From a phage: a DNA stretch of 44,263 bases. Below the pieces are notes generated by a model. That model ran no database searches, was not told the DNA's origin, and was given only the letters and a program-made list of their open reading frames with translations. Location: the NCBI GenBank assembly GCA_029038705.1, contig GCA_029038705.1_4346.1, one strand, 5' to 3'. Below, in pieces: positions 22,397 through 30,417 of this stretch. Position 1 is the first letter of the stretch. Each line of letters begins with the position of its first letter. The position numbers and the translations under genes are program-made.

Positions 22397-23797
22397 TTAG
22401 CCGTCCACATTAAAATCAATACGAGTGATATATTTACTACCCCACGCAGAATCGGCCTGAGGGATAGTCGCGTAATCATCTACAGCCTGAACGTTTATCA
22501 CGGAGCCGTCGGAATAGGTGATGTCGATACTTGTCGCGCCGTTCATTACTACTTTTGCCGATGGCGCTGGGCGTGTTACAGGAGACGCCGACGTAATTAT
22601 TGGTGATGTTGTATTTTGGTTTACCTCTACAGTAGCCGCGGATAATTTAATCCCTGAAACGCCATCCCCCGTAAAGGCTCCGGTAACTCCGTCTGAATAT
22701 ATCCATGCGTCCATCCGTATGCTCATTGTTTTATCTTCTGTCGCGGTGATCGTCTCCGATATTCGGAACCACCCTCCGCCTACGTCGGTTACATCTGTAC
22801 CGCCTGGGCCGGAATAAATGCTACCATCCCGCAAATCAACAACTGCCGAGCCTAATACTGTAGGAAGTTCTCGCACGTACATCCGTATGAAATTGTATCC
22901 GTTTGCTTTTGCGAAGAAACTAAAAGTAACCATGTCGCCAACACCAACGCTAACATCTACAGTCTGGTTTATTAGGTGGTTACCGCTTGCGGCGGTAGCA
23001 GTTACGTCGTACGTGCCAGCGGCTGTTAAAACACCTGTTTCAGATACTGATACACTCACCAAACCTTTGTTCCAGTTTGACGAAGAGAAATTGCTTGAAT
23101 ATAGGAATCTGTTAGTTACTGATACCTCTGGTGGCACGCGCCCGGCGGCAACCCCGTCAATAAACGTAAGAGGCCATTCATTGGCGGCGGACTGTACAAG
23201 ATTACCATTGCGGTTGATGTAATAAACCTGTGGCCCCTCATACACAATGCGGCTATCAAGAGTCGACGCCAGAAGGTTAATCGGCGGATACCCGGCGGGG
23301 CCTTCATTGCTCCAGATGCGAGGGAACGTCGTCTCATAGTTCGCGTATATTTTCAGGAAACTACCCAGACAATCCCCGTAACAGCCGTACAAATCCGGAA
23401 GATTGTTAATCAGGCACTGGTTCTCAAGGTCCTGGAACGGCGATTTCTCGGCGGTTGCTGTGAAGGTAATTGTCCAGTTAATCCCGTCTTCGGTGGACTC
23501 GGCGATAGTGGACGTAATGGTTACCTGATAATCTTCGATGCCCATGCCGAAGTCGTGCGCCATCCAGAAACTTGACGCACCGCCGTCTACTTTTTCGAGG
23601 AACGACAGAAACGCCTGTCGCCCCATTGCGGATGTAATCAGGGTTACGCTCACCGGGAACACGTCGTAATACGTGTCGCGCCCCTGACGTACACCGCCAC
23701 CAGCTAAATCAACGCTCCAGACGTTGTTACGTCTGGTCATCGAGTAGCCTTTCGATACAATTGGCTTAAGGCTACGTGGGAAATATAAGTCGCTCAT
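22397..23797 (-). CDS. Minor/distal tail protein with C-terminal extension
   Basis: 466 aa immediately downstream of the tape measure protein. Confidence 0.5.
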   Translation of the reverse strand: MSDLYFPRSLKPIVSKGYSMTRRNNVWSVDLAGGGVRQGRDTYYDVFPVSVTLITSAMGRQAFLSFLEKVDGGASSFWMAHDFGMGIEDYQVTITSTIAESTEDGINWTITFTATAEKSPFQDLENQCLINNLPDLYGCYGDCLGSFLKIYANYETTFPRIWSNEGPAGYPPINLLASTLDSRIVYEGPQVYYINRNGNLVQSAANEWPLTFIDGVAAGRVPPEVSVTNRFLYSSNFSSSNWNKGLVSVSVSETGVLTAAGTYDVTATAASGNHLINQTVDVSVGVGDMVTFSFFAKANGYNFIRMYVRELPTVLGSAVVDLRDGSIYSGPGGTDVTDVGGGWFRISETITATEDKTMSIRMDAWIYSDGVTGAFTGDGVSGIKLSAATVEVNQNTTSPIITSASPVTRPAPSAKVVMNGATSIDITYSDGSVINVQAVDDYATIPQADSAWGSKYITRIDFNVDG

Positions 23798-25815
23798 TAT
23801 TTGAACCCCGGCGCGTTTCTTGTGGCCTTGCGAGCCTTGCTAATCTTACTGTTGCTGTTCTGCAAAGACGCGGCAACCTGTTCTTCAATGATGATACGCA
23901 AACGGCCCTCATCATCTTGCTCAGTGGATACGTTGCCGATTTGAGAACTCGTGTTGTTTACGATAGTAACATTAGATGGGCCACTATTTCCGCTATTATT
24001 ACCGTTTAACTGCTGCCGTGTTTGACTTGCATTGGTCGCCCTGCCAGAACCCGCCATCTTGATAATCTCAGGGCCGCGTTCACCAACCAGGTAACTACCG
24101 CCAGCGTTCATTTGCCCGCCTTGCTCACGCGCGCCGCTAATCTTGGCGATGTTCGCCACCCCCGCCGCGACAGCCAGACCCGCGGCAACCGGAGCGAGTG
24201 CCGGGCCGACAATTGGAATAGCAGCAGTTGATTTATAGGCTTCGATAGCAGCCGTGTAAGTGGCAATAGTCGCTTGCGTTATGGCGAACGCTTTGTACGC
24301 AGCGGACGTCTCCCCCAGTGCGGATTTAGCATCCGCTGCCATGCTGCCGAATGCGTCGGCGGTGGCGTTGGCTTGTGCAATATTGCTCTGTTCGTTCAGG
24401 TTACGCACTGCATTAGCGTATTCTTCTTCGCTGATTAGTTTCTGTTTAAGGAAATCGTCCAGTTGCTTAAGTTTGGCGTCATTCTGCCGTTGGATTTCCT
24501 CGAACTCTGTGCCACCAAGCGCCTGTAGTTTCTCCAGATATGCATCAGCATTGTTATACAGCGCATCTCGTTGTGCCTGAAACTCCGCCATGATGTCACT
24601 TTTCGACTTCTCGTAGTCAGCGTCGCTTACGAGTTGCTTGTCGTGGAACTCCTGCAATTTAGCCAGTTTCTGTTTCTCTTTGGCGTCTATCCGTTCTAAC
24701 TCTGTTCCGGTGTTTGTGTCTATTTGAGCTATAAACTGGTCTGCGGCTTTCTGTGCGCTTTCCTGCGCGCGAGCGTCGGCGCGGGCTTGAGCATCTGCTC
24801 GTTTCTTAGCTGCGGCAGCGATACGATTCTGCCTGTCTATTTCCTTCTGTGCCCTGTCCGCCTTATCCTTTTCATACGTCTTCTCAGATTGCTCTACCCC
24901 TTTTCGCTCGGCTGCGCGGGTCTTTTCCTCCACACCAAGGTAGTTAAGTTCATTTCGCAGTTTATTTATTTCCATCTGCGCTTCTGGCGTTTTGGCGTTT
25001 ATGCCGTCCAGGTAGGCGACCAGCCCTTCTCGAGCTCCAGGAACCCCAGCTGCGATTGCTTTCTGAGCAACTTCAATACTGCGTAACTCTTTGGCGGTCA
25101 ACCCCGCCGCTTCCGCAGCGGATTCGTACTGGAAAGCCACGGCCCCGGCAGCGTCCCCGCCTTGGGCTATCTGTGATGCGGCAAGGTTGGTGGTCAACTT
25201 CTGAAACAGAGATTGGGCTTTTGTTACCTTATCAATAGCTTCAACAATCTTATCTGCGGTGGAGTTAGCCTGTATGGCGGTTGCCTCTAGTGCCTTATTA
25301 AGAAATGCCATCTTCTCCGCTGTTGTTGCCCCGACAGCGTCCAGTTTTTCCAGTGCGTCATTCATGTCATACACACCGGGTGTGGCCTCATTAAGAGCGT
25401 CATCAAGGAACTTAGTAGCTTCCTCCAGTTGTTTAGCGGTATCCGTTGAGTTACTCAAAGACGCGTACAGCGCGCCGCCGATTACGGTGGCGATAGTCAA
25501 TACCGTGCCCGCAATTGGATTGAATGCGGACACTAACTGACTACCTTGTTGCGTGAAAGCCGTGAGGGCGGACTGCCCCCCTTGGATTTGTACGATAAAG
25601 TCCTGTACCTGATACCCAGCATTACCTATTGACGCCCGCATCGCGTTCATCTTCGGGGTTGCCGCGGAGGTGGTGTCCGTTAGTTTCTTTGTGCTGGAAT
25701 CCGCTTTCCCAGCGGAACTACTAAGGTTATCTAACTGCTTTGCTGCTTGCTCCGCTCCAGTTGCCTGGACTCGCACCATTAAACTCGCGGTATCAGCCAT
25801 TATAATCGTCCTCAT
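23797..25815 (-). CDS. Tail tape measure protein
   Basis: 672 aa; long Ala/Gln/Lys/Glu-rich coiled-coil core, C-terminal hydrophobic/Gly-rich segment (IVGPALAPVAAGLAVAAG...GERGPE). Confidence 0.8.
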   Translation of the reverse strand: MRTIIMADTASLMVRVQATGAEQAAKQLDNLSSSAGKADSSTKKLTDTTSAATPKMNAMRASIGNAGYQVQDFIVQIQGGQSALTAFTQQGSQLVSAFNPIAGTVLTIATVIGGALYASLSNSTDTAKQLEEATKFLDDALNEATPGVYDMNDALEKLDAVGATTAEKMAFLNKALEATAIQANSTADKIVEAIDKVTKAQSLFQKLTTNLAASQIAQGGDAAGAVAFQYESAAEAAGLTAKELRSIEVAQKAIAAGVPGAREGLVAYLDGINAKTPEAQMEINKLRNELNYLGVEEKTRAAERKGVEQSEKTYEKDKADRAQKEIDRQNRIAAAAKKRADAQARADARAQESAQKAADQFIAQIDTNTGTELERIDAKEKQKLAKLQEFHDKQLVSDADYEKSKSDIMAEFQAQRDALYNNADAYLEKLQALGGTEFEEIQRQNDAKLKQLDDFLKQKLISEEEYANAVRNLNEQSNIAQANATADAFGSMAADAKSALGETSAAYKAFAITQATIATYTAAIEAYKSTAAIPIVGPALAPVAAGLAVAAGVANIAKISGAREQGGQMNAGGSYLVGERGPEIIKMAGSGRATNASQTRQQLNGNNSGNSGPSNVTIVNNTSSQIGNVSTEQDDEGRLRIIIEEQVAASLQNSNSKISKARKATRNAPGFK

Positions 25816-26062
25816 TACGGCCTTCGAACAGTGCGTCTAGGCCCATTATTAAGTCTACCTCAAGCAACGAGAACGGCTGTTTATGCAACTCTGCGTACGC
25901 TGTAAGGTGGTGATATTGGAGCATTTCCCTTGGTATTAGCACATTATTGCGGCTTACAAACTTCAATGCGTAGTATTTATCCATTATTTTCATCATATCG
26001 CTCGGGCATTCCGGCGGGGTTTCCTCAGGCTCCTTCGGTACAGGTAACCCCATAGCCGCCAT
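25793..26062 (-). CDS. Tail assembly chaperone, T-like downstream ORF
   Basis: 89 aa between the G-like chaperone and the tape measure. Its frame is open about 39 codons upstream of the ATG and is -1 relative to the preceding ORF. Confidence 0.4.
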   Translation of the reverse strand: MAAMGLPVPKEPEETPPECPSDMMKIMDKYYALKFVSRNNVLIPREMLQYHHLTAYAELHKQPFSLLEVDLIMGLDALFEGRNEDDYNG

Positions 26063-26151
26063 AGCGGCCTTGTGCCCGTCGGCGATGGAGTCGAACTCAC
26101 GTCTCCTTTGCCGTATAACCCAGCGATACCTCGCATATTCGTAAAGCGCTT

Positions 26152-26568
26152 CTACTTTACAGATAAAGCTTTGCGGCTCTCAGCATGGTGTTGAGCGACA
26201 GCCCCTCCCAACCCTTTATACTCCTTCAACAGCTTGACCAACGCTTTCTTAGTGAACTTCTCCTCGAAGGACCACCCTACAACAACAACGGCAGCAAGTG
26301 CATCGTTAAGTTTAGCCAATTCACTGTTTAATTCCGTGTTATAGCGCGCCCAGTCCCCTTTCTCGCGGCACTCCGCGTCGAGCGGTTTCAGGCGGTCAAG
26401 GATGTCGCGGTAAGCGGAGATAAAATCCTTAGCTGCGGCGATTGAGTCGTCGCAGTCAGGCCCCATCACCTGCAACCACTCCCCTGAGTCACTGCCGTCC
26501 GGTAGCAGGATAGGCATCTTAGTTCCCGCAGCGTGGCGGGACGCGAAATAAAAATCAGAAAGTTTCAT
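26152..26568 (-). CDS. Tail assembly chaperone (gpG-like)
   Basis: 138 aa, acidic; canonical position between the major tail and tape measure genes. Confidence 0.5.
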   Translation of the reverse strand: MKLSDFYFASRHAAGTKMPILLPDGSDSGEWLQVMGPDCDDSIAAAKDFISAYRDILDRLKPLDAECREKGDWARYNTELNSELAKLNDALAAVVVVGWSFEEKFTKKALVKLLKEYKGLGGAVAQHHAESRKALSVK

Positions 26569-26677
26569 TCTTTAATCCTTTGGTTAAGAGGTTGTTGGTT
26601 AAAGAGAAATGCACCAGGCGGTAACCAACCGCTTTTCGTGCGCGACACTAGGTGCAAAATTATTCTAACACACTACT

Positions 26678-26706
26678 TGCACACCCCAATATAATAGGGT
26701 ACTATT
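26678..26706 (+). promoter_or_regulatory. Sigma70-like promoter (TTGCAC-N17-TACTAT) with AATAG-N4-CTATT element, driving the plus-strand cassette
   Basis: TTGCACACCCCAATATAATAGGGTACTAT; same architecture as the minus-strand early promoters at 2431 and 4040. Confidence 0.55.
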
Positions 26707-26745
26707 CACTTACACCAACGTTATTAACTTAAATAAGGAATTAAA

Positions 26746-27072
26746 ATGCGTAAATTAATCATAGCCATGGGTCTTATTTCTTTTTGCGCGGTAGGGTCCC
26801 AGTGTGAGCAAGTATATAGTGAAACCCCTTTAGTAACTTCCGGGGTGCTTGATTCAGCCCCTCCGTCTGCCGTTAGTGCGTTTAAAACCGCTGCTATTCG
26901 CGAATGTAATGCTGCCGTGCGCGCTGGCGGGTCTGGCCTTGGTCTTGAATTGATGACATCCCTTGTTGTTGAGTCTGTAGATGTTAACAGCCCCACTTTC
27001 AGCAGCCTACTGTTAGCCACTCGTTTGCAAATGGTTACAACCGGATGGTCAATAGGCGCAGAAAGTAAATAG
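26746..27072 (+). CDS. Hypothetical small secreted protein (N-terminal signal peptide)
   Basis: 108 aa; MRKLIIAMGLISFCAVGSQC signal-like start (no canonical lipobox); AAGGAA RBS. The antisense ORF 26724..27020 is judged spurious. Confidence 0.45.
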   Translation: MRKLIIAMGLISFCAVGSQCEQVYSETPLVTSGVLDSAPPSAVSAFKTAAIRECNAAVRAGGSGLGLELMTSLVVESVDVNSPTFSSLLLATRLQMVTTGWSIGAESK

Positions 27073-27137
27073 TTGCCTTTATTTAAAGGAATGCACTGTG
27101 GTTAAATAGGACAAATCCTAAACACGAGGAAATAGGC

Positions 27138-28292
27138 ATGGCCCAGAAGAAAATAACCGACGAACAGTTACAGGAAGAATTGAACGCTGGGATGAAGAAT
27201 ATCGACATTGCTCGTAAATACGGCATCTCAGACCGCGTTATTCGTATCCGTAAAGCGAAACTAGCGAAGAAAGGCGTAGGCCACGGGCGTGACGTTAGCC
27301 ACCTTGTGCCGGACGGCTACAAGATTAAGGGTACATCGTCTCTGGTTGATGAGTTAGGCAACACTAAACTGCAATGGGTTAAGACCGACACCGATGCGGA
27401 ACGTCAGGTCGAGTTAATGAAAGCCGTTGTGGACGAGATGAAAAAAGATTTACCCAAGTATAAGCCAGTCACTTTGGCCAAAAATGGGACAGATGACGAC
27501 TTATTAAATCTTTACACAATAACAGACCATCACATAGGGATGTTGGCGTGTCAAGAAGAAGGCGGGGATGATTACGACACCACAATCGCGGAATCTCTCG
27601 CGGTTGACTGGTTCAACAGTGCGGTTTGTATGAGTCCACAGAGTGGTGAATGTATCATTAACTTCTTAGGGGACCAAATGCACTACGACGGCATGAAGGC
27701 AATGACCCCTATGAGCGGTCATATTCTTTCAGCGGATAGTCGCCTGTTTAAAATGATACGCACGGCCATTAAGGTTATCAAGCTGGCTGTCTCACTGTGC
27801 TTGCGAAAACACAAGAAGGTTAAACTTCTTATCTGTGAAGGTAACCACGACCTTAGTTCTTCTCTGTGGCTCCGGGAGATGTTCTACGAGGTATACACAA
27901 ATGAGCCTCGCGTCGAGGTTAACCGGGAGGTGTCACCGTATTATGCGTACAAGTTCGGGGATTGTATGATTTCAGCACATCACGGGCATTGTTCTAACTT
28001 TGCTAAGGTAGAGCAGGCTATAATCGGTAAGTACCGGGAGATGTACGGGCGGTGTAAGTTCACATATGTCCATACGGGGCACCTCCATCACAGGGCGGTT
28101 AAAGAGACTAATCTGCTAATTGTTGAGCAACACCAGACATTAGCGGCTAAAGATGAGTATTCTAGTAAGGGCGGCTATTATTCAGGTAGAAGCGCAAATG
28201 TGATTACATACCACAAACGTTACGGGGAGGTGTCCCGCATAAGTATACCTGTCGAAATGCTGCGAGACATAAACCCAAAATCGACATACTAA
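27138..28292 (+). CDS. HTH domain fused to a calcineurin-like metallophosphoesterase
   Basis: 384 aa. N-terminal NIDIARKYGISDRVIRIRKAKL (HTH-like). Phosphoesterase motifs in canonical order: TDHHIG, GDQMHYDG, EGNHD, HHGH, HTGHLHH. Confidence 0.65.
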   Translation: MAQKKITDEQLQEELNAGMKNIDIARKYGISDRVIRIRKAKLAKKGVGHGRDVSHLVPDGYKIKGTSSLVDELGNTKLQWVKTDTDAERQVELMKAVVDEMKKDLPKYKPVTLAKNGTDDDLLNLYTITDHHIGMLACQEEGGDDYDTTIAESLAVDWFNSAVCMSPQSGECIINFLGDQMHYDGMKAMTPMSGHILSADSRLFKMIRTAIKVIKLAVSLCLRKHKKVKLLICEGNHDLSSSLWLREMFYEVYTNEPRVEVNREVSPYYAYKFGDCMISAHHGHCSNFAKVEQAIIGKYREMYGRCKFTYVHTGHLHHRAVKETNLLIVEQHQTLAAKDEYSSKGGYYSGRSANVITYHKRYGEVSRISIPVEMLRDINPKSTY

Positions 28293-28307
28293 AATATAGG
28301 TGAAAGT

Positions 28308-28808
28308 ATGGATTGGAGTGAGGTTTTTAGCTACAAAAATGGCGTCCTATACTGGAAAGTCAAATCATGTCGCCGTAACGATGTGAATATAGGTGATGTG
28401 GCCGGGAGTTTGTGTAAAAACGGCTATTGGTATGTCATGTTTGGTAACCGTAAGTTTAAAAGGTCGAGGGTGGTGTATGAGATGTTCTCAGGTAAGATTC
28501 CAAAAGGATTTGTCATAGACCATACTAACCATGATACCTGTGACGACAGAATTGAAAACCTGTCATGCAAATCTAGAAGGGACAACATGGTTAACGTGAA
28601 AAGGCGCAAAGATAATACCTCTGGAGTTACGGGTGTGGCGCGGAAAGGAAAAACTAAGTGGAGAGCTTATGCCGTTGTCAACGGTAAGCAGATTAGTAAA
28701 ACATTTGACAGAATAGAGGACGCTTTCGCTGAAAGAATTTACATGTCTGTGGCTAATAGGTTTCACATAAATCATGGACTGACAACATTCAACAACGGTT
28801 ATAAATAG
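28308..28808 (+). CDS. HNH homing endonuclease with AP2-like domain (paralogue of 13912..14409)
   Basis: GFVIDHTNHDTCDDRIENL...(HNH) and SGVTGVARKGKTKWRAYAVVNGKQISKTF (AP2-like). Confidence 0.8.
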   Translation: MDWSEVFSYKNGVLYWKVKSCRRNDVNIGDVAGSLCKNGYWYVMFGNRKFKRSRVVYEMFSGKIPKGFVIDHTNHDTCDDRIENLSCKSRRDNMVNVKRRKDNTSGVTGVARKGKTKWRAYAVVNGKQISKTFDRIEDAFAERIYMSVANRFHINHGLTTFNNGYK

Positions 28809-28817
28809 GGTGTAGAG

Positions 28818-29111
28818 ATGACTTCAAAATACAACCGCACAATGACAAACACTCACGGCAGCACCATGACAGTAGACGTTTATGATGTGCTCCGTGCTTT
28901 CGATATCCGTGACCCGGCGCTACAGCATGCGTTAAAGAAGTTATTGTGCATGGGCTTGCGCGGACACAAGGACACCGGAACCGACTTAGCAGAAGCAATT
29001 GAAAGTCTGGAGAAGTTACGGGAATACCGAAGCAATATTGATGAGTTAAAATATTATGAAAACAATATATGTAATCCGAGTATACGACGAAGAATGGGAC
29101 GAGTGGGTTGA
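28818..29111 (+). CDS. Hypothetical protein
   Basis: 97 aa ORF. An overlapping alternative 53 aa ORF (29056..29217) exists; the true 3' end is uncertain. Confidence 0.4.
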   Translation: MTSKYNRTMTNTHGSTMTVDVYDVLRAFDIRDPALQHALKKLLCMGLRGHKDTGTDLAEAIESLEKLREYRSNIDELKYYENNICNPSIRRRMGRVG

Positions 29112-29213
29112 TATTTATGCCGTTAGTAGTAAGGAAGAGGCCTCTAAAGAAATGACAGAACGAAGGGACCGAGGCCAGTTAACTAACTTCTACGAAATGC
29201 CGTTCAAAAGTGA

Positions 29214-29248
29214 GTAAGAAAAGGCCCCTTTCGGGGCCTTAGTTTTAT
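29214..29248. terminator. Bidirectional terminator between the plus-strand cassette and the major tail gene
   Basis: AAGGCCCC-TTTC-GGGGCCTT with T-rich flanks on both strands. Confidence 0.6.
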
Positions 29249-30417
29249 GCGTAACTAATACGTTGAATTACGATAGACGACTGATACTGGTTGCCTGTGG
29301 ACTGCCCTTCTATACTTTGGGTAATTGACTCAGGCCCGCCAATCTCAGGTGTAACCGCCGTGAGTTCTGCGCGTTTCAAACTAAAAGACATAGCCCCGTT
29401 TACCCCCGCCAGAATAGAGTTAATCTCCACCTGCTGTTCGTTGATAAACTTCTGAATCATAGCCATGTCGTACAGCTTGCCGGAGATGGAGAAGGTGTTA
29501 GCCGCGCGGCTACGTTCCACAAACGCTACGTTAGTGTTGCCGAGTTCGAACTGCGCCGACGCGCTGTTGTCGTTGGTGATGGTCAGGCTGTCGCAACGCA
29601 ACGGCGTAGAACCGTCGAACACAGAAACATCGACCGAGGAGAATGGCTCGGCACCAAACGTAACAGAGGAGAAATCAGAACCAGACGGCTGCGTGGTGAG
29701 AATCTCCTGACTGCGACCGATGAACGGGAAGCTGCCAGTTACCATCGCGTTAACAGCCTGTTCGATGGTAAAACCAGAAACTTCCACGCCTTTGGTTAAC
29801 GTGTACGCGTCAGTACCGCCGCACTGGCCTTTGTACCAGGTAAGGATAGAGAACGTCTTACACGCGTTACCGGTTTCCAACGTGTCGCCAGTTTTAGCCT
29901 TACTAGTTTTTGTCTCGGTGGTCAGGGTGTGTTGGATGCCCGCACCAGTAACAACCGTAGCCTTTACTGCAGTAACAATAAATGGTTTTGCGTTATCGCC
30001 TGTTAAATCGGTAAACGCAATCAGGTCGCCTACCCCAACTCCGTCAGTGATAAAACTGCCGGTAGCGCGTGTGAACGTCTTGCCCGCGGGTGCGACGGTA
30101 ATCGATAGTCCTGACAGGGAAACGCCGGATTGCCACGTAGAGCCTAAAGCCCCGGCTAACCAGTCGTCCTGACTTTTAGAGCTAAGCTCAATAGCGTATT
30201 CTCCGCTAACCTGCTTGTTACCGGTGCGGATGGATGTGGTTTCTCGGCTGCCGTCAAGTTCGTTGGAGGTCAGCGTGTCGCGGGTAATGGCAGGAACGCC
30301 GCCCGTGTTGCGCAACGGCGACCATACCGGGTTAGCCGGTGTTACGCCCGGGGTAGTTTCTGCCACATAGAATTGCGCAGTATTCGCGCCCTTAAAAGGA
30401 GTTGTAGCCATATTCAC
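29245..30417 (-). CDS. Major tail (tube) protein
   Basis: 390 aa, Thr/Ser/Gly-rich; positioned between connector genes and chaperones. Confidence 0.6.
   Translation of the reverse strand: MNMATTPFKGANTAQFYVAETTPGVTPANPVWSPLRNTGGVPAITRDTLTSNELDGSRETTSIRTGNKQVSGEYAIELSSKSQDDWLAGALGSTWQSGVSLSGLSITVAPAGKTFTRATGSFITDGVGVGDLIAFTDLTGDNAKPFIVTAVKATVVTGAGIQHTLTTETKTSKAKTGDTLETGNACKTFSILTWYKGQCGGTDAYTLTKGVEVSGFTIEQAVNAMVTGSFPFIGRSQEILTTQPSGSDFSSVTFGAEPFSSVDVSVFDGSTPLRCDSLTITNDNSASAQFELGNTNVAFVERSRAANTFSISGKLYDMAMIQKFINEQQVEINSILAGVNGAMSFSLKRAELTAVTPEIGGPESITQSIEGQSTGNQYQSSIVIQRISYA

What the first reader, a model, noticed from the sequence alone, without database searches (positions are those of the whole stretch)
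25793..26568. Chaperone pair overlap without a recognisable slippery site
The T-like ORF is open in the -1 frame for about 39 codons upstream of its ATG and overlaps the last 9 codons of the G-like ORF, the usual setting for programmed frameshifting. The overlap reads ...GAG AGC CGC AAA GCT TTA TCT GTA AAG TAG and contains no canonical X-XXY-YYZ heptamer. Either the shift uses a non-canonical site or the T-like protein is made from its own ATG.
Basis: seen in the sequence. Interest (0 to 1): 0.3.

Follow-up and report, generated by a model that had tools for sequence, protein, structure and literature searches.

The report
Tail chaperone frameshift at A_AAG-stop
This is the usual phage tail-assembly chaperone pair, whose longer fusion protein is almost certainly made by a one-base backward ribosome slip on the four bases A_AAG just before the first gene's stop codon, a minimal slip signal shared by every relative examined and already annotated as a frameshift in some of them.

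Summary
On the minus strand, a 138-aa G-like ORF (26568-26152) is overlapped for 25 nt by a -1 frame that stays open to 25796 and runs into the tape-measure gene. No X_XXY_YYZ heptamer lies in the overlap.

G ends GTA AAG TAG, which is the tetranucleotide A_AAG abutting the stop.

- All 113 related loci with an intact G end finish NNA_AAG_TAR. The preceding codon encodes six different amino acids but always ends in A, and Lys is always AAG.
- One relative leaves only 7 nt of overlap.
- Four loci carry G_GGA_AAG or A_AAA_AAG at this exact position.
- Against the nearest relative, the 32 codons between the slip site and the first ATG changed 12 synonymous : 2 non-synonymous in the -1 frame, and 2:12 and 1:13 in the other two frames.
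- Two relatives have no start codon in the T frame until codon 109.
- The fusion I predicted for phage K1H is identical to its deposited frameshift product.

I found no conserved stimulatory RNA structure or internal Shine-Dalgarno sequence. The adjacent stop codon may be the stimulator, but that is inferred, not shown. This is an ordinary, known kind of feature and of low interest.

The parts
26152..26568 (-). G-like tail assembly chaperone ORF (138 aa plus TAG stop)
   Evidence: ORF list and translation. Matches phrog_15027 positions 1-138 at E=1e-50 and Pfam Phage_TAC_4 at 27.7 bits. The exact protein is in public collections as 'MAG: tail assembly chaperone'.
26155..26158 (-). Proposed -1 slip site A_AAG (last sense codon AAG = Lys138, preceded by the A of GTA)
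   Evidence: NNA_AAG_TAR is present in all 113 related loci with an intact G end. The profile junction falls at Lys138. Substitution patterns switch frame here. Locus L076 allows a slip only within its last 7 nt.
26152..26154 (-). G stop codon TAG directly 3' of the slip site; possible 'shifty stop' stimulator
   Evidence: Among 69 distinct related sequences the stop is TAG in 48, TAA in 21 and TGA in none, and it is always adjacent to A_AAG. The +4 base is A or C in 67 of 69. A stimulatory role is inferred, not shown.
25796..26155 (-). T segment read in the -1 frame after the slip (120 codons, VEALYEYAR...EDDYNG); stop TGA at 25795-25793
   Evidence: Translation. Matches phrog_15027 positions 137-258 and phrog_4557, and Pfam Phage_TAC_18 at 42.1 bits. 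Synonymous to non-synonymous codon changes against phage Esher4 are 12:2 before the ATG and 35:6 after it.
26180..26182 (-). TGA that closes the -1 frame upstream and sets the 25-nt overlap window
   Evidence: Sequence and three-frame translation.
26051..26062 (-).
   Evidence: Weak Shine-Dalgarno pairing of -3.8 and -2.9 kcal/mol. The first is not conserved (Leu in most relatives). The second is Ile in six clusters.
23797..25800 (-). Tape measure protein gene; its likely start ATG at 25800 overlaps the T stop (ATGGCTGA)
   Evidence: phrog_1538 at E=3e-106. K1H has the same 8-nt overlap between the end of GT and the start of its tape-measure gene.

Best explanation
The locus is a lambda-type G/GT tail assembly chaperone pair of a Kagunavirus-like (Guernseyvirinae-like) E. 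coli siphophage.

Most ribosomes translate G (138 aa) and terminate at TAG. A minority slip back one base when tRNA-Lys, decoding the last sense codon AAG (26157-26155), re-pairs with the overlapping AAA (26158-26156). They then read GUA (Val) and continue in the -1 frame for 120 codons. The product is a 258-aa G-T fusion (...KALSVK|VEALYEYAR...) that ends 8 nt inside the tape-measure gene.

The slip signal is the minimal tetranucleotide A_AAG rather than an X_XXY_YYZ heptamer. The P-site tRNA on GUA cannot re-pair in the -1 frame, so only the Lys tRNA slips.

The adjacent stop codon probably helps. One plausible route is that tRNA-Lys sits in the P site while the A site waits for a release factor, and that pause gives time for the slip. 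No RNA structure or internal Shine-Dalgarno stimulator is evident.

Shown here: the anatomy, the frame switch at this position, and family-wide conservation of the motif. Inferred: that a fusion protein is actually made, its proportion, which ribosomal site the slip occurs in, and any role of the stop codon.
For: 1. The fused-chaperone profile phrog_15027 runs through the junction at Lys138.

2. All 113 related loci with an intact G end finish NNA_AAG_TAR. They comprise 69 distinct sequences and 26 clusters below 93% identity. The -2 codon is GAA, GCA, GTA, AAA, TCA or GGA, which is six amino acids, all with A-ending codons. Lys is never AAA, although AAA outnumbers AAG 390 to 276 in this window.

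3. The overlap is as short as 7 nt in L076 and 16 nt in several other loci.

4. Canonical heptamers sit at exactly this position in relatives: G_GGA_AAG in L022 and L078, A_AAA_AAG in L039 and L040. A distant high-GC relative, L116, has T_TTT_TTC at the homologous junction.

5. Window against Esher4: changes upstream of the site are synonymous only in the G frame (72:4). The 32 codons downstream, before any ATG, changed 12:2 in the T frame against 2:12 and 1:13 in the other frames.

6. L046 and L052 have no ATG, GTG or TTG in the T frame until codon 109.

7. My predicted K1H fusion, slipped at the same Lys, is identical to the deposited product YP_009168853.1 / ADA82316.1. Phage fFiEco02 is also annotated as a frameshift product.

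8. A_AA.G is the most shift-prone tetramer in E. coli (PMC4066793). A_AAG sites serve IS1222 and B. subtilis cdd (PMC5009743).
Against: - No protein-level evidence is available for this phage or, as far as I found, for any Guernseyvirinae.
- In reporter assays A_AAG alone gave only about 0.15% frameshifting, barely above background, and needed a pseudoknot to reach 5.6%.
- I found no conserved stimulator. The window's 107 nt downstream fold no better than shuffled sequences (z = -0.34), and relatives range from z = +1.7 to -3.5.
- The only consensus helix is 6 bp at -1.8 kcal/mol. Its one covarying pair holds in only 13 of 26 clusters.
- I saw no Shine-Dalgarno-like sequence at a useful distance upstream (read from the sequences; not scored).
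- The role of the stop codon cannot be separated from the simple need for G to end, because the next stop in the G frame is 47 codons further on.
- A published relative (Shashou) was annotated as having no slippery sequence and no frameshift.
Confidence: 0.85

Rival explanations
1. T is made as a separate ~86-89-aa protein by independent initiation at ATG 26062 or 26053. There is no frameshift, and the upstream open stretch is incidental.
For: Two in-frame ATGs exist. Gene callers annotate an 83-105-aa stand-alone protein in many records. The Shashou announcement took this view. The second Met is conserved in most relatives.
Against: - The 32 codons upstream of the ATG evolve as coding sequence in the T frame (12:2), and they align without gaps across the family from the residue after Lys138.
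- The ATG at 26062 is Leu in most relatives. The second Met is Ile in six clusters.
- L046 and L052 have no start codon until codon 109.
- Shine-Dalgarno pairing is weak (-3.8 and -2.9 kcal/mol).
- The nucleotide-level conservation of A_AAG would be left unexplained.
Confidence: 0.07
2. The -1 slip occurs elsewhere in the 25-nt overlap, for example on U_UUA (GCT TTA, 26168-26165) rather than on A_AAG.
For: U_UUA was 1.8- to 3.6-fold above background in E. coli reporters with a pseudoknot, and it lies inside the window's overlap.
Against: - That codon is CTC, CTT, CTG, TTA or TTG in relatives, so the motif is not conserved.
- Window-to-Esher4 changes at GCT/TTA/TCT are synonymous in the G frame and non-synonymous in the T frame, so this stretch is read in the G frame (read from the sequences).
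- L076 leaves only 7 nt of overlap.
- The profile junction is at Lys138.
Confidence: 0.03
3. The fusion arises from transcriptional slippage (RNA polymerase deleting an A in the A-run) rather than from ribosomal slippage.
For: The site contains a short A run (AAA in the window, AAAA in K1H-like phages).
Against: From general knowledge, productive transcriptional slippage needs homopolymer runs of roughly 7 or more. The window has three As. Strict conservation of G as the fourth base, and of the adjacent stop, fits tRNA-Lys re-pairing and not polymerase slippage.
Confidence: 0.02

Closest known systems
Phage lambda gpG/gpGT and the conserved tail-chaperone frameshift of dsDNA phages (Levin 1993; Xu, Hendrix and Duda 2004, as cited in PMC5009743)
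   Same: Two overlapping ORFs lie directly upstream of the tape-measure gene. The second is in the -1 frame and has no start of its own. A short product and a C-terminally extended fusion share one start. The slip lies at the 3' end of G.
   Different: Lambda uses the heptamer G_GGA_AAG with tandem slippage of two tRNAs. Here only A_AAG is present and the upstream codon (GTA) cannot re-pair. The slip codon is the very last sense codon. G and T belong to other Pfam families (Phage_TAC_4 and Phage_TAC_18). The tail tube gene is separated from G by a 2.7-kb block of genes on the opposite strand.
Escherichia phage K1H ORF19A/19B (YP_009168854 / YP_009168853) and other Kagunavirus/Jerseyvirus chaperones (phrog_15027)
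   Same: Homologous G and T (about 48% aa identity), the same gene order, and the same ...A_AAG_TAR junction. The K1H fusion is already deposited as a joined CDS, and its sequence equals a slip at this Lys.
   Different: The window carries a divergent allele shared at DNA level only with phage MirsaeidiM_Esher4. It has GTA rather than GAA before AAG. Its fusion is not annotated in public records.
Tetranucleotide Z_ZZN -1 frameshift sites: A_AAG in IS1222 (G_CGA_AAG) and B. subtilis cdd (A_CGA_AAG)
   Same: A single tRNA-Lys slips on A_AAG with a non-slippery 5' codon. It works in bacteria that have one Lys tRNA for both AAA and AAG (PMC5009743; PMC4066793).
   Different: From general knowledge, those cases use an upstream Shine-Dalgarno sequence and/or a downstream structure as stimulator. 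Here neither is detectable, and a stop codon directly follows the site.
Burkholderia phage KL1 gp18/gp19
   Same: The tail-chaperone slip site lies immediately upstream of the stop codon of the short product (PMC3483164).
   Different: KL1 has a canonical heptamer (GGGAAAC) and a TGA stop.

Membership tests
Lambda-type G/GT tail assembly chaperone pair expressed by -1 programmed frameshift | Two overlapping ORFs immediately upstream of the tape-measure gene, the second in the -1 frame | tested here: met
   G is 26568-26152. The -1 frame is open 26179-25796. The tape-measure gene (phrog_1538) starts at 25800/25815.
Lambda-type G/GT tail assembly chaperone pair expressed by -1 programmed frameshift | Canonical X_XXY_YYZ slippery heptamer in the overlap | tested here: not met
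   None in the 25-nt overlap. Only the tetramer A_AAG is present. Relatives L022/L078 and L039/L040 do have G_GGA_AAG and A_AAA_AAG at the same position.
Lambda-type G/GT tail assembly chaperone pair expressed by -1 programmed frameshift | The downstream segment has no translation start of its own and is conserved as protein right from the junction | tested here: met
   12:2 synonymous to non-synonymous changes in the 32 codons before the first ATG. The family alignment is gapless from K-V-x-A-L. L046 and L052 have no start until codon 109.
Lambda-type G/GT tail assembly chaperone pair expressed by -1 programmed frameshift | Located between the major tail (tube) gene and the tape-measure gene | tested here: inconclusive
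   The tube-like gene 29245-30417 (phrog_290) is upstream on the same strand, but a block of opposite-strand genes (26746-29217) intervenes. K1H likewise has opposite-strand genes (a hypothetical protein and a DNA repair exonuclease) directly upstream of G.
Lambda-type G/GT tail assembly chaperone pair expressed by -1 programmed frameshift | Both G and a minor G-T fusion protein are produced, and both are needed for tail assembly | not testable with these tools
   Needs protein analysis and genetics.
phrog_15027 / Pfam Phage_TAC_4 + Phage_TAC_18 (Guernseyvirinae chaperones) | Sequence match above family thresholds | tested here: met
   phrog_15027 at E=1e-50 (G) and 5e-35 (T). PF08748 at 27.7 bits (cut-off 21.1). 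PF23812 at 42.1 bits (cut-off 27).
Z_ZZN tetranucleotide -1 frameshift sites (A_AAG class) | A_AAG in the zero frame within the region where both frames are open | tested here: met
   GT A_AAG TAG at 26160-26152. Conserved in all 113 related loci with an intact G end.
Z_ZZN tetranucleotide -1 frameshift sites (A_AAG class) | A stimulator: an upstream Shine-Dalgarno-like sequence or a downstream hairpin/pseudoknot | tested here: not met
   The window's downstream fold has z = -0.34. The consensus helix is only -1.8 kcal/mol and is not supported by covariation. I saw no conserved Shine-Dalgarno-like sequence 10-14 nt upstream (read; not scored). A pseudoknot search was not done.
Z_ZZN tetranucleotide -1 frameshift sites (A_AAG class) | The host decodes AAA and AAG with a single tRNA-Lys (UUU-type anticodon) | not tested
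   The host is inferred to be E. coli from its relatives. E. coli has a single Lys tRNA according to PMC5009743.

The most novel reading that the evidence does not exclude
The stop codon may be an integral part of the signal. This would be a natural -1 'shifty stop', in which tRNA-Lys slips in the P site on A_AAG while the A site holds a weakly terminating UAG/UAA followed by A or C, with no RNA structure involved. The G:GT ratio across this large phage family (about 500 phage records) would then be set by competition between release factor and Val-tRNA, and would respond to the host's release-factor and translation state.
Probability: 0.35. Interest if true: 0.4.

Novelty: new member of a known kind. 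Interest (0 to 1): 0.2.

Why it matters
The practical value is for annotation. Records of this phage group disagree. K1H and fFiEco02 carry a joined frameshift CDS, most others list a 'hypothetical protein', and one genome announcement states there is no slippery sequence. The comparative evidence here gives one rule for all of them: slip at the terminal A_AAG and join Lys to Val.

For mechanism, it adds a well-conserved natural example of a minimal tetranucleotide -1 site with no detectable RNA stimulator, directly abutting a stop codon. That makes a convenient test case for whether slow termination can stimulate -1 slippage. It does not change the understanding of tail assembly.

Tried and rejected
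- **Downstream stimulatory RNA structure.** Single-sequence folds of 60-120 nt and z-scores for 12 diverse relatives show no consistent stability. RNAalifold found one 6-bp long-range helix (GCGCU with GGC(C)GCU about 80 nt downstream) that seemed to covary at one pair among 12 sequences. With 26 clusters that pair is formed in only 13, and another pair breaks in 6. I attribute the helix to conserved Ala-Leu and Ala-Ala-Leu codons.\n- **Upstream internal Shine-Dalgarno sequence.** I saw none conserved (read from the sequences; not scored).\n- **Other slip sites in the overlap (U_UUA, C_AAA).** Rejected on conservation and substitution pattern.\n- **Big protein database search with the fusion.** It returned only two G-only hits and was uninformative.\n- **PDB sequence search with the family profile and NCBIfam scan.** Nothing significant.\n- **Promoter and terminator scan of 25700-27200.** Nothing above shuffle expectation.\n- **Literature on K1 phages and Guernseyvirinae frameshift sites.** I found no explicit description of the A_AAG-stop site.
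Full report
**What is there**

All relevant genes are on the minus strand. A 138-aa ORF (26568-26152, stop TAG) is followed by a -1-frame reading frame. That frame is closed upstream by TGA (26182-26180), is open from 26179 to 25796, and has its first ATG at 26062. Its stop overlaps the start of a 670-aa tape-measure gene (phrog_1538, E=3e-106).

The first ORF matches Pfam Phage_TAC_4 at 27.7 bits (cut-off 21.1). The -1 frame matches Phage_TAC_18 at 42.1 bits (cut-off 27).

PHROG family phrog_15027 is a 259-position profile of fused chaperones. It matches G residues 1-138 to profile positions 1-138, and -1-frame residues 7-123 to positions 137-258. The two frames therefore join at Lys138.

**Where the frame changes**

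G ends GTA AAG TAG. The last sense codon with the preceding base forms A_AAG (26158-26155), directly followed by the stop.

I collected 114 related loci: three annotated phages and 111 IMG/VR loci. They comprise 62 distinct 115-nt sequences (69 distinct over a longer 155-nt stretch) and 26 clusters below 93% identity.

- Every one of the 113 loci with an intact G end finishes NNA_AAG_TAR. A further locus, L059, has G broken across three frames, probably by sequencing errors, but it has the same junction.
- The codon before AAG is GAA, GCA, GTA, AAA, TCA or GGA. That is six different amino acids, always with an A-ending codon.
- Lys is always AAG and never AAA, although AAA is the commoner Lys codon in this window (390 to 276). 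This is constraint on the nucleotides, not on the protein.
- The overlap shrinks to 16 nt in several loci and to 7 nt (C GCA AAG) in L076.
- Two pairs of loci have full canonical heptamers at this position: G_GGA_AAG and A_AAA_AAG.
- A distant high-GC relative (L116) has T_TTT_TTC at the homologous junction, just before an R-E-A-L motif that aligns with V-E-A-L here.

**Evidence from the window's own lineage**

The only DNA-level relative of this G/T allele is Escherichia phage MirsaeidiM_Esher4, at 80% nucleotide and 94.6% amino-acid identity.

| Region compared | Frame read | Synonymous : non-synonymous codon changes |
|---|---|---|
| G ORF | G frame | 72 : 4 |
| 32 codons between slip site and first ATG | T frame | 12 : 2 |
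| Same 32 codons | G frame | 2 : 12 |
| Same 32 codons | +1 frame | 1 : 13 |
| T segment after the ATG | T frame | 35 : 6 |

The three changed codons just upstream of the site (GCT/GCG, TTA/CTG, TCT/TCG) are silent in the G frame and non-synonymous in the T frame. The reading frame under selection therefore switches within GTA-AAG-TAG.

**Can T be made on its own?**

- In the window, the two ATGs at 26062 and 26053 have weak Shine-Dalgarno pairing (-3.8 and -2.9 kcal/mol). The G start scores -5.4 and the ATG at 25815, which ORF listing gives as the tape-measure start, scores -6.0.
- The first ATG is Leu in most relatives.
- The second Met is Ile in six clusters.
- In L046 and L052 the T frame has no ATG, GTG or TTG until codon 109 of 122.

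Independent initiation cannot be the family's way of making T.

**Mechanism**

The best-supported reading is a -1 slip of the single tRNA-Lys from AAG to AAA, followed by decoding of GUA (Val) and 119 further codons. The result is a 258-aa fusion.

According to the literature read here, the minimal -1 site is a Z_ZZN tetramer. A_AAG has been studied since the 1980s and is used by IS1222 and B. subtilis cdd (PMC5009743). In E. coli the tetramer ranking is A_AA.G >> U_UU.C > U_UU.U. A_AA.G reaches 5.6% with the IS3 pseudoknot, but tetramers without a stimulator averaged only about 0.15% (PMC4066793).

A stimulator is therefore expected, and I did not find one.

- The window's downstream 107 nt fold no better than shuffled sequences (z = -0.34).
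- Relatives scatter from z = +1.7 to -3.5.
- The only consensus helix is a weak 6-bp long-range pairing that loses its apparent covariation when more lineages are added.
- I saw no conserved upstream Shine-Dalgarno-like sequence (read from the sequences; not scored).

The one invariant neighbour is the stop codon. It is TAG in 48 distinct sequences, TAA in 21 and TGA in none. The following base is A or C in 67 of 69, and +4U is the base reported to strengthen termination (abstract of PMC5289835).

A P-site slip during slow termination is an attractive mechanism, but it is inferred. The stop must also be there simply to end G, and the +4 base is also a coding position in T.

**Comparison with what is known**

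This is the conserved tail-chaperone frameshift of dsDNA phages. The frameshift is already annotated in relatives. K1H carries a joined CDS, and my predicted K1H fusion is identical to the deposited YP_009168853.1. Phage fFiEco02 is labelled 'frameshift product'.

Other records list T as a hypothetical protein. [quoted passage not shown]

The window's own fusion is not in the public protein collection, while its G and its 89-aa T are present as separate proteins.

Phage KL1 offers a precedent for a slip site immediately before the stop, but with a canonical heptamer (PMC3483164).

**Verdict**

- It is a new member of a known kind and of low interest.
- The open point worth a small experiment is whether the stop codon acts as the stimulator.

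Noticed in passing
window 25793-25815 (minus strand): The tape-measure gene probably starts at ATG 25800 (MADTASL...). This forms ATGGCTGA with the T stop, an 8-nt overlap, as in K1H. The upstream ATG at 25815 given by the mechanical ORF list is probably not the start.
   Followed up: partly
window 26746-29217 (+ strand): A block of opposite-strand genes sits between the tail tube-like gene (29245-30417, minus strand) and G/T. It holds a phrog_14165 hypothetical protein, a DNA repair exonuclease (phrog_704), an HNH endonuclease (phrog_99) and small ORFs. K1H also has an exonuclease and a hypothetical protein there. Whether the HNH gene is an insertion specific to this phage was not checked.
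   Followed up: partly
window 26448-26700: There is a mosaic boundary inside G. The intergenic region plus the first ~40 codons of G are 82-86% identical to about 110 Kagunavirus records. The rest of G/T has only phage MirsaeidiM_Esher4 as a DNA-level relative and is about 48% identical in protein to the others.
   Followed up: partly
L046 and L052 (IMG/VR relatives), T frame: These relatives have no ATG, GTG or TTG anywhere in the T frame until codon 109 of 122. The Met of the conserved A-M-G motif is Ile in six clusters.
   Followed up: yes
L116 (IMGVR_UViG_3300038525_000015, about 1201-2100): A distant, high-GC relative on an 81-kb contig has a canonical T_TTT_TTC heptamer at the homologous G/T junction. 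Its G frame continues about 10 codons past the heptamer, so the slip site does not abut the stop there.
   Followed up: partly
L059 (IMGVR_UViG_638275545_000001): The G gene is split over three reading frames, probably through sequencing errors in an old genome record. The A_AAG_TAG junction itself is intact.
   Followed up: no
window 26150-26145 with 26069-26063 (minus strand): A possible long-range pairing of AGCGCU (5 nt after the slip site) with GGC(C)GCU about 80 nt downstream recurs in many relatives. It is explained by conserved Ala-Leu and Ala-Ala-Leu codons and is not supported by covariation.
   Followed up: yes
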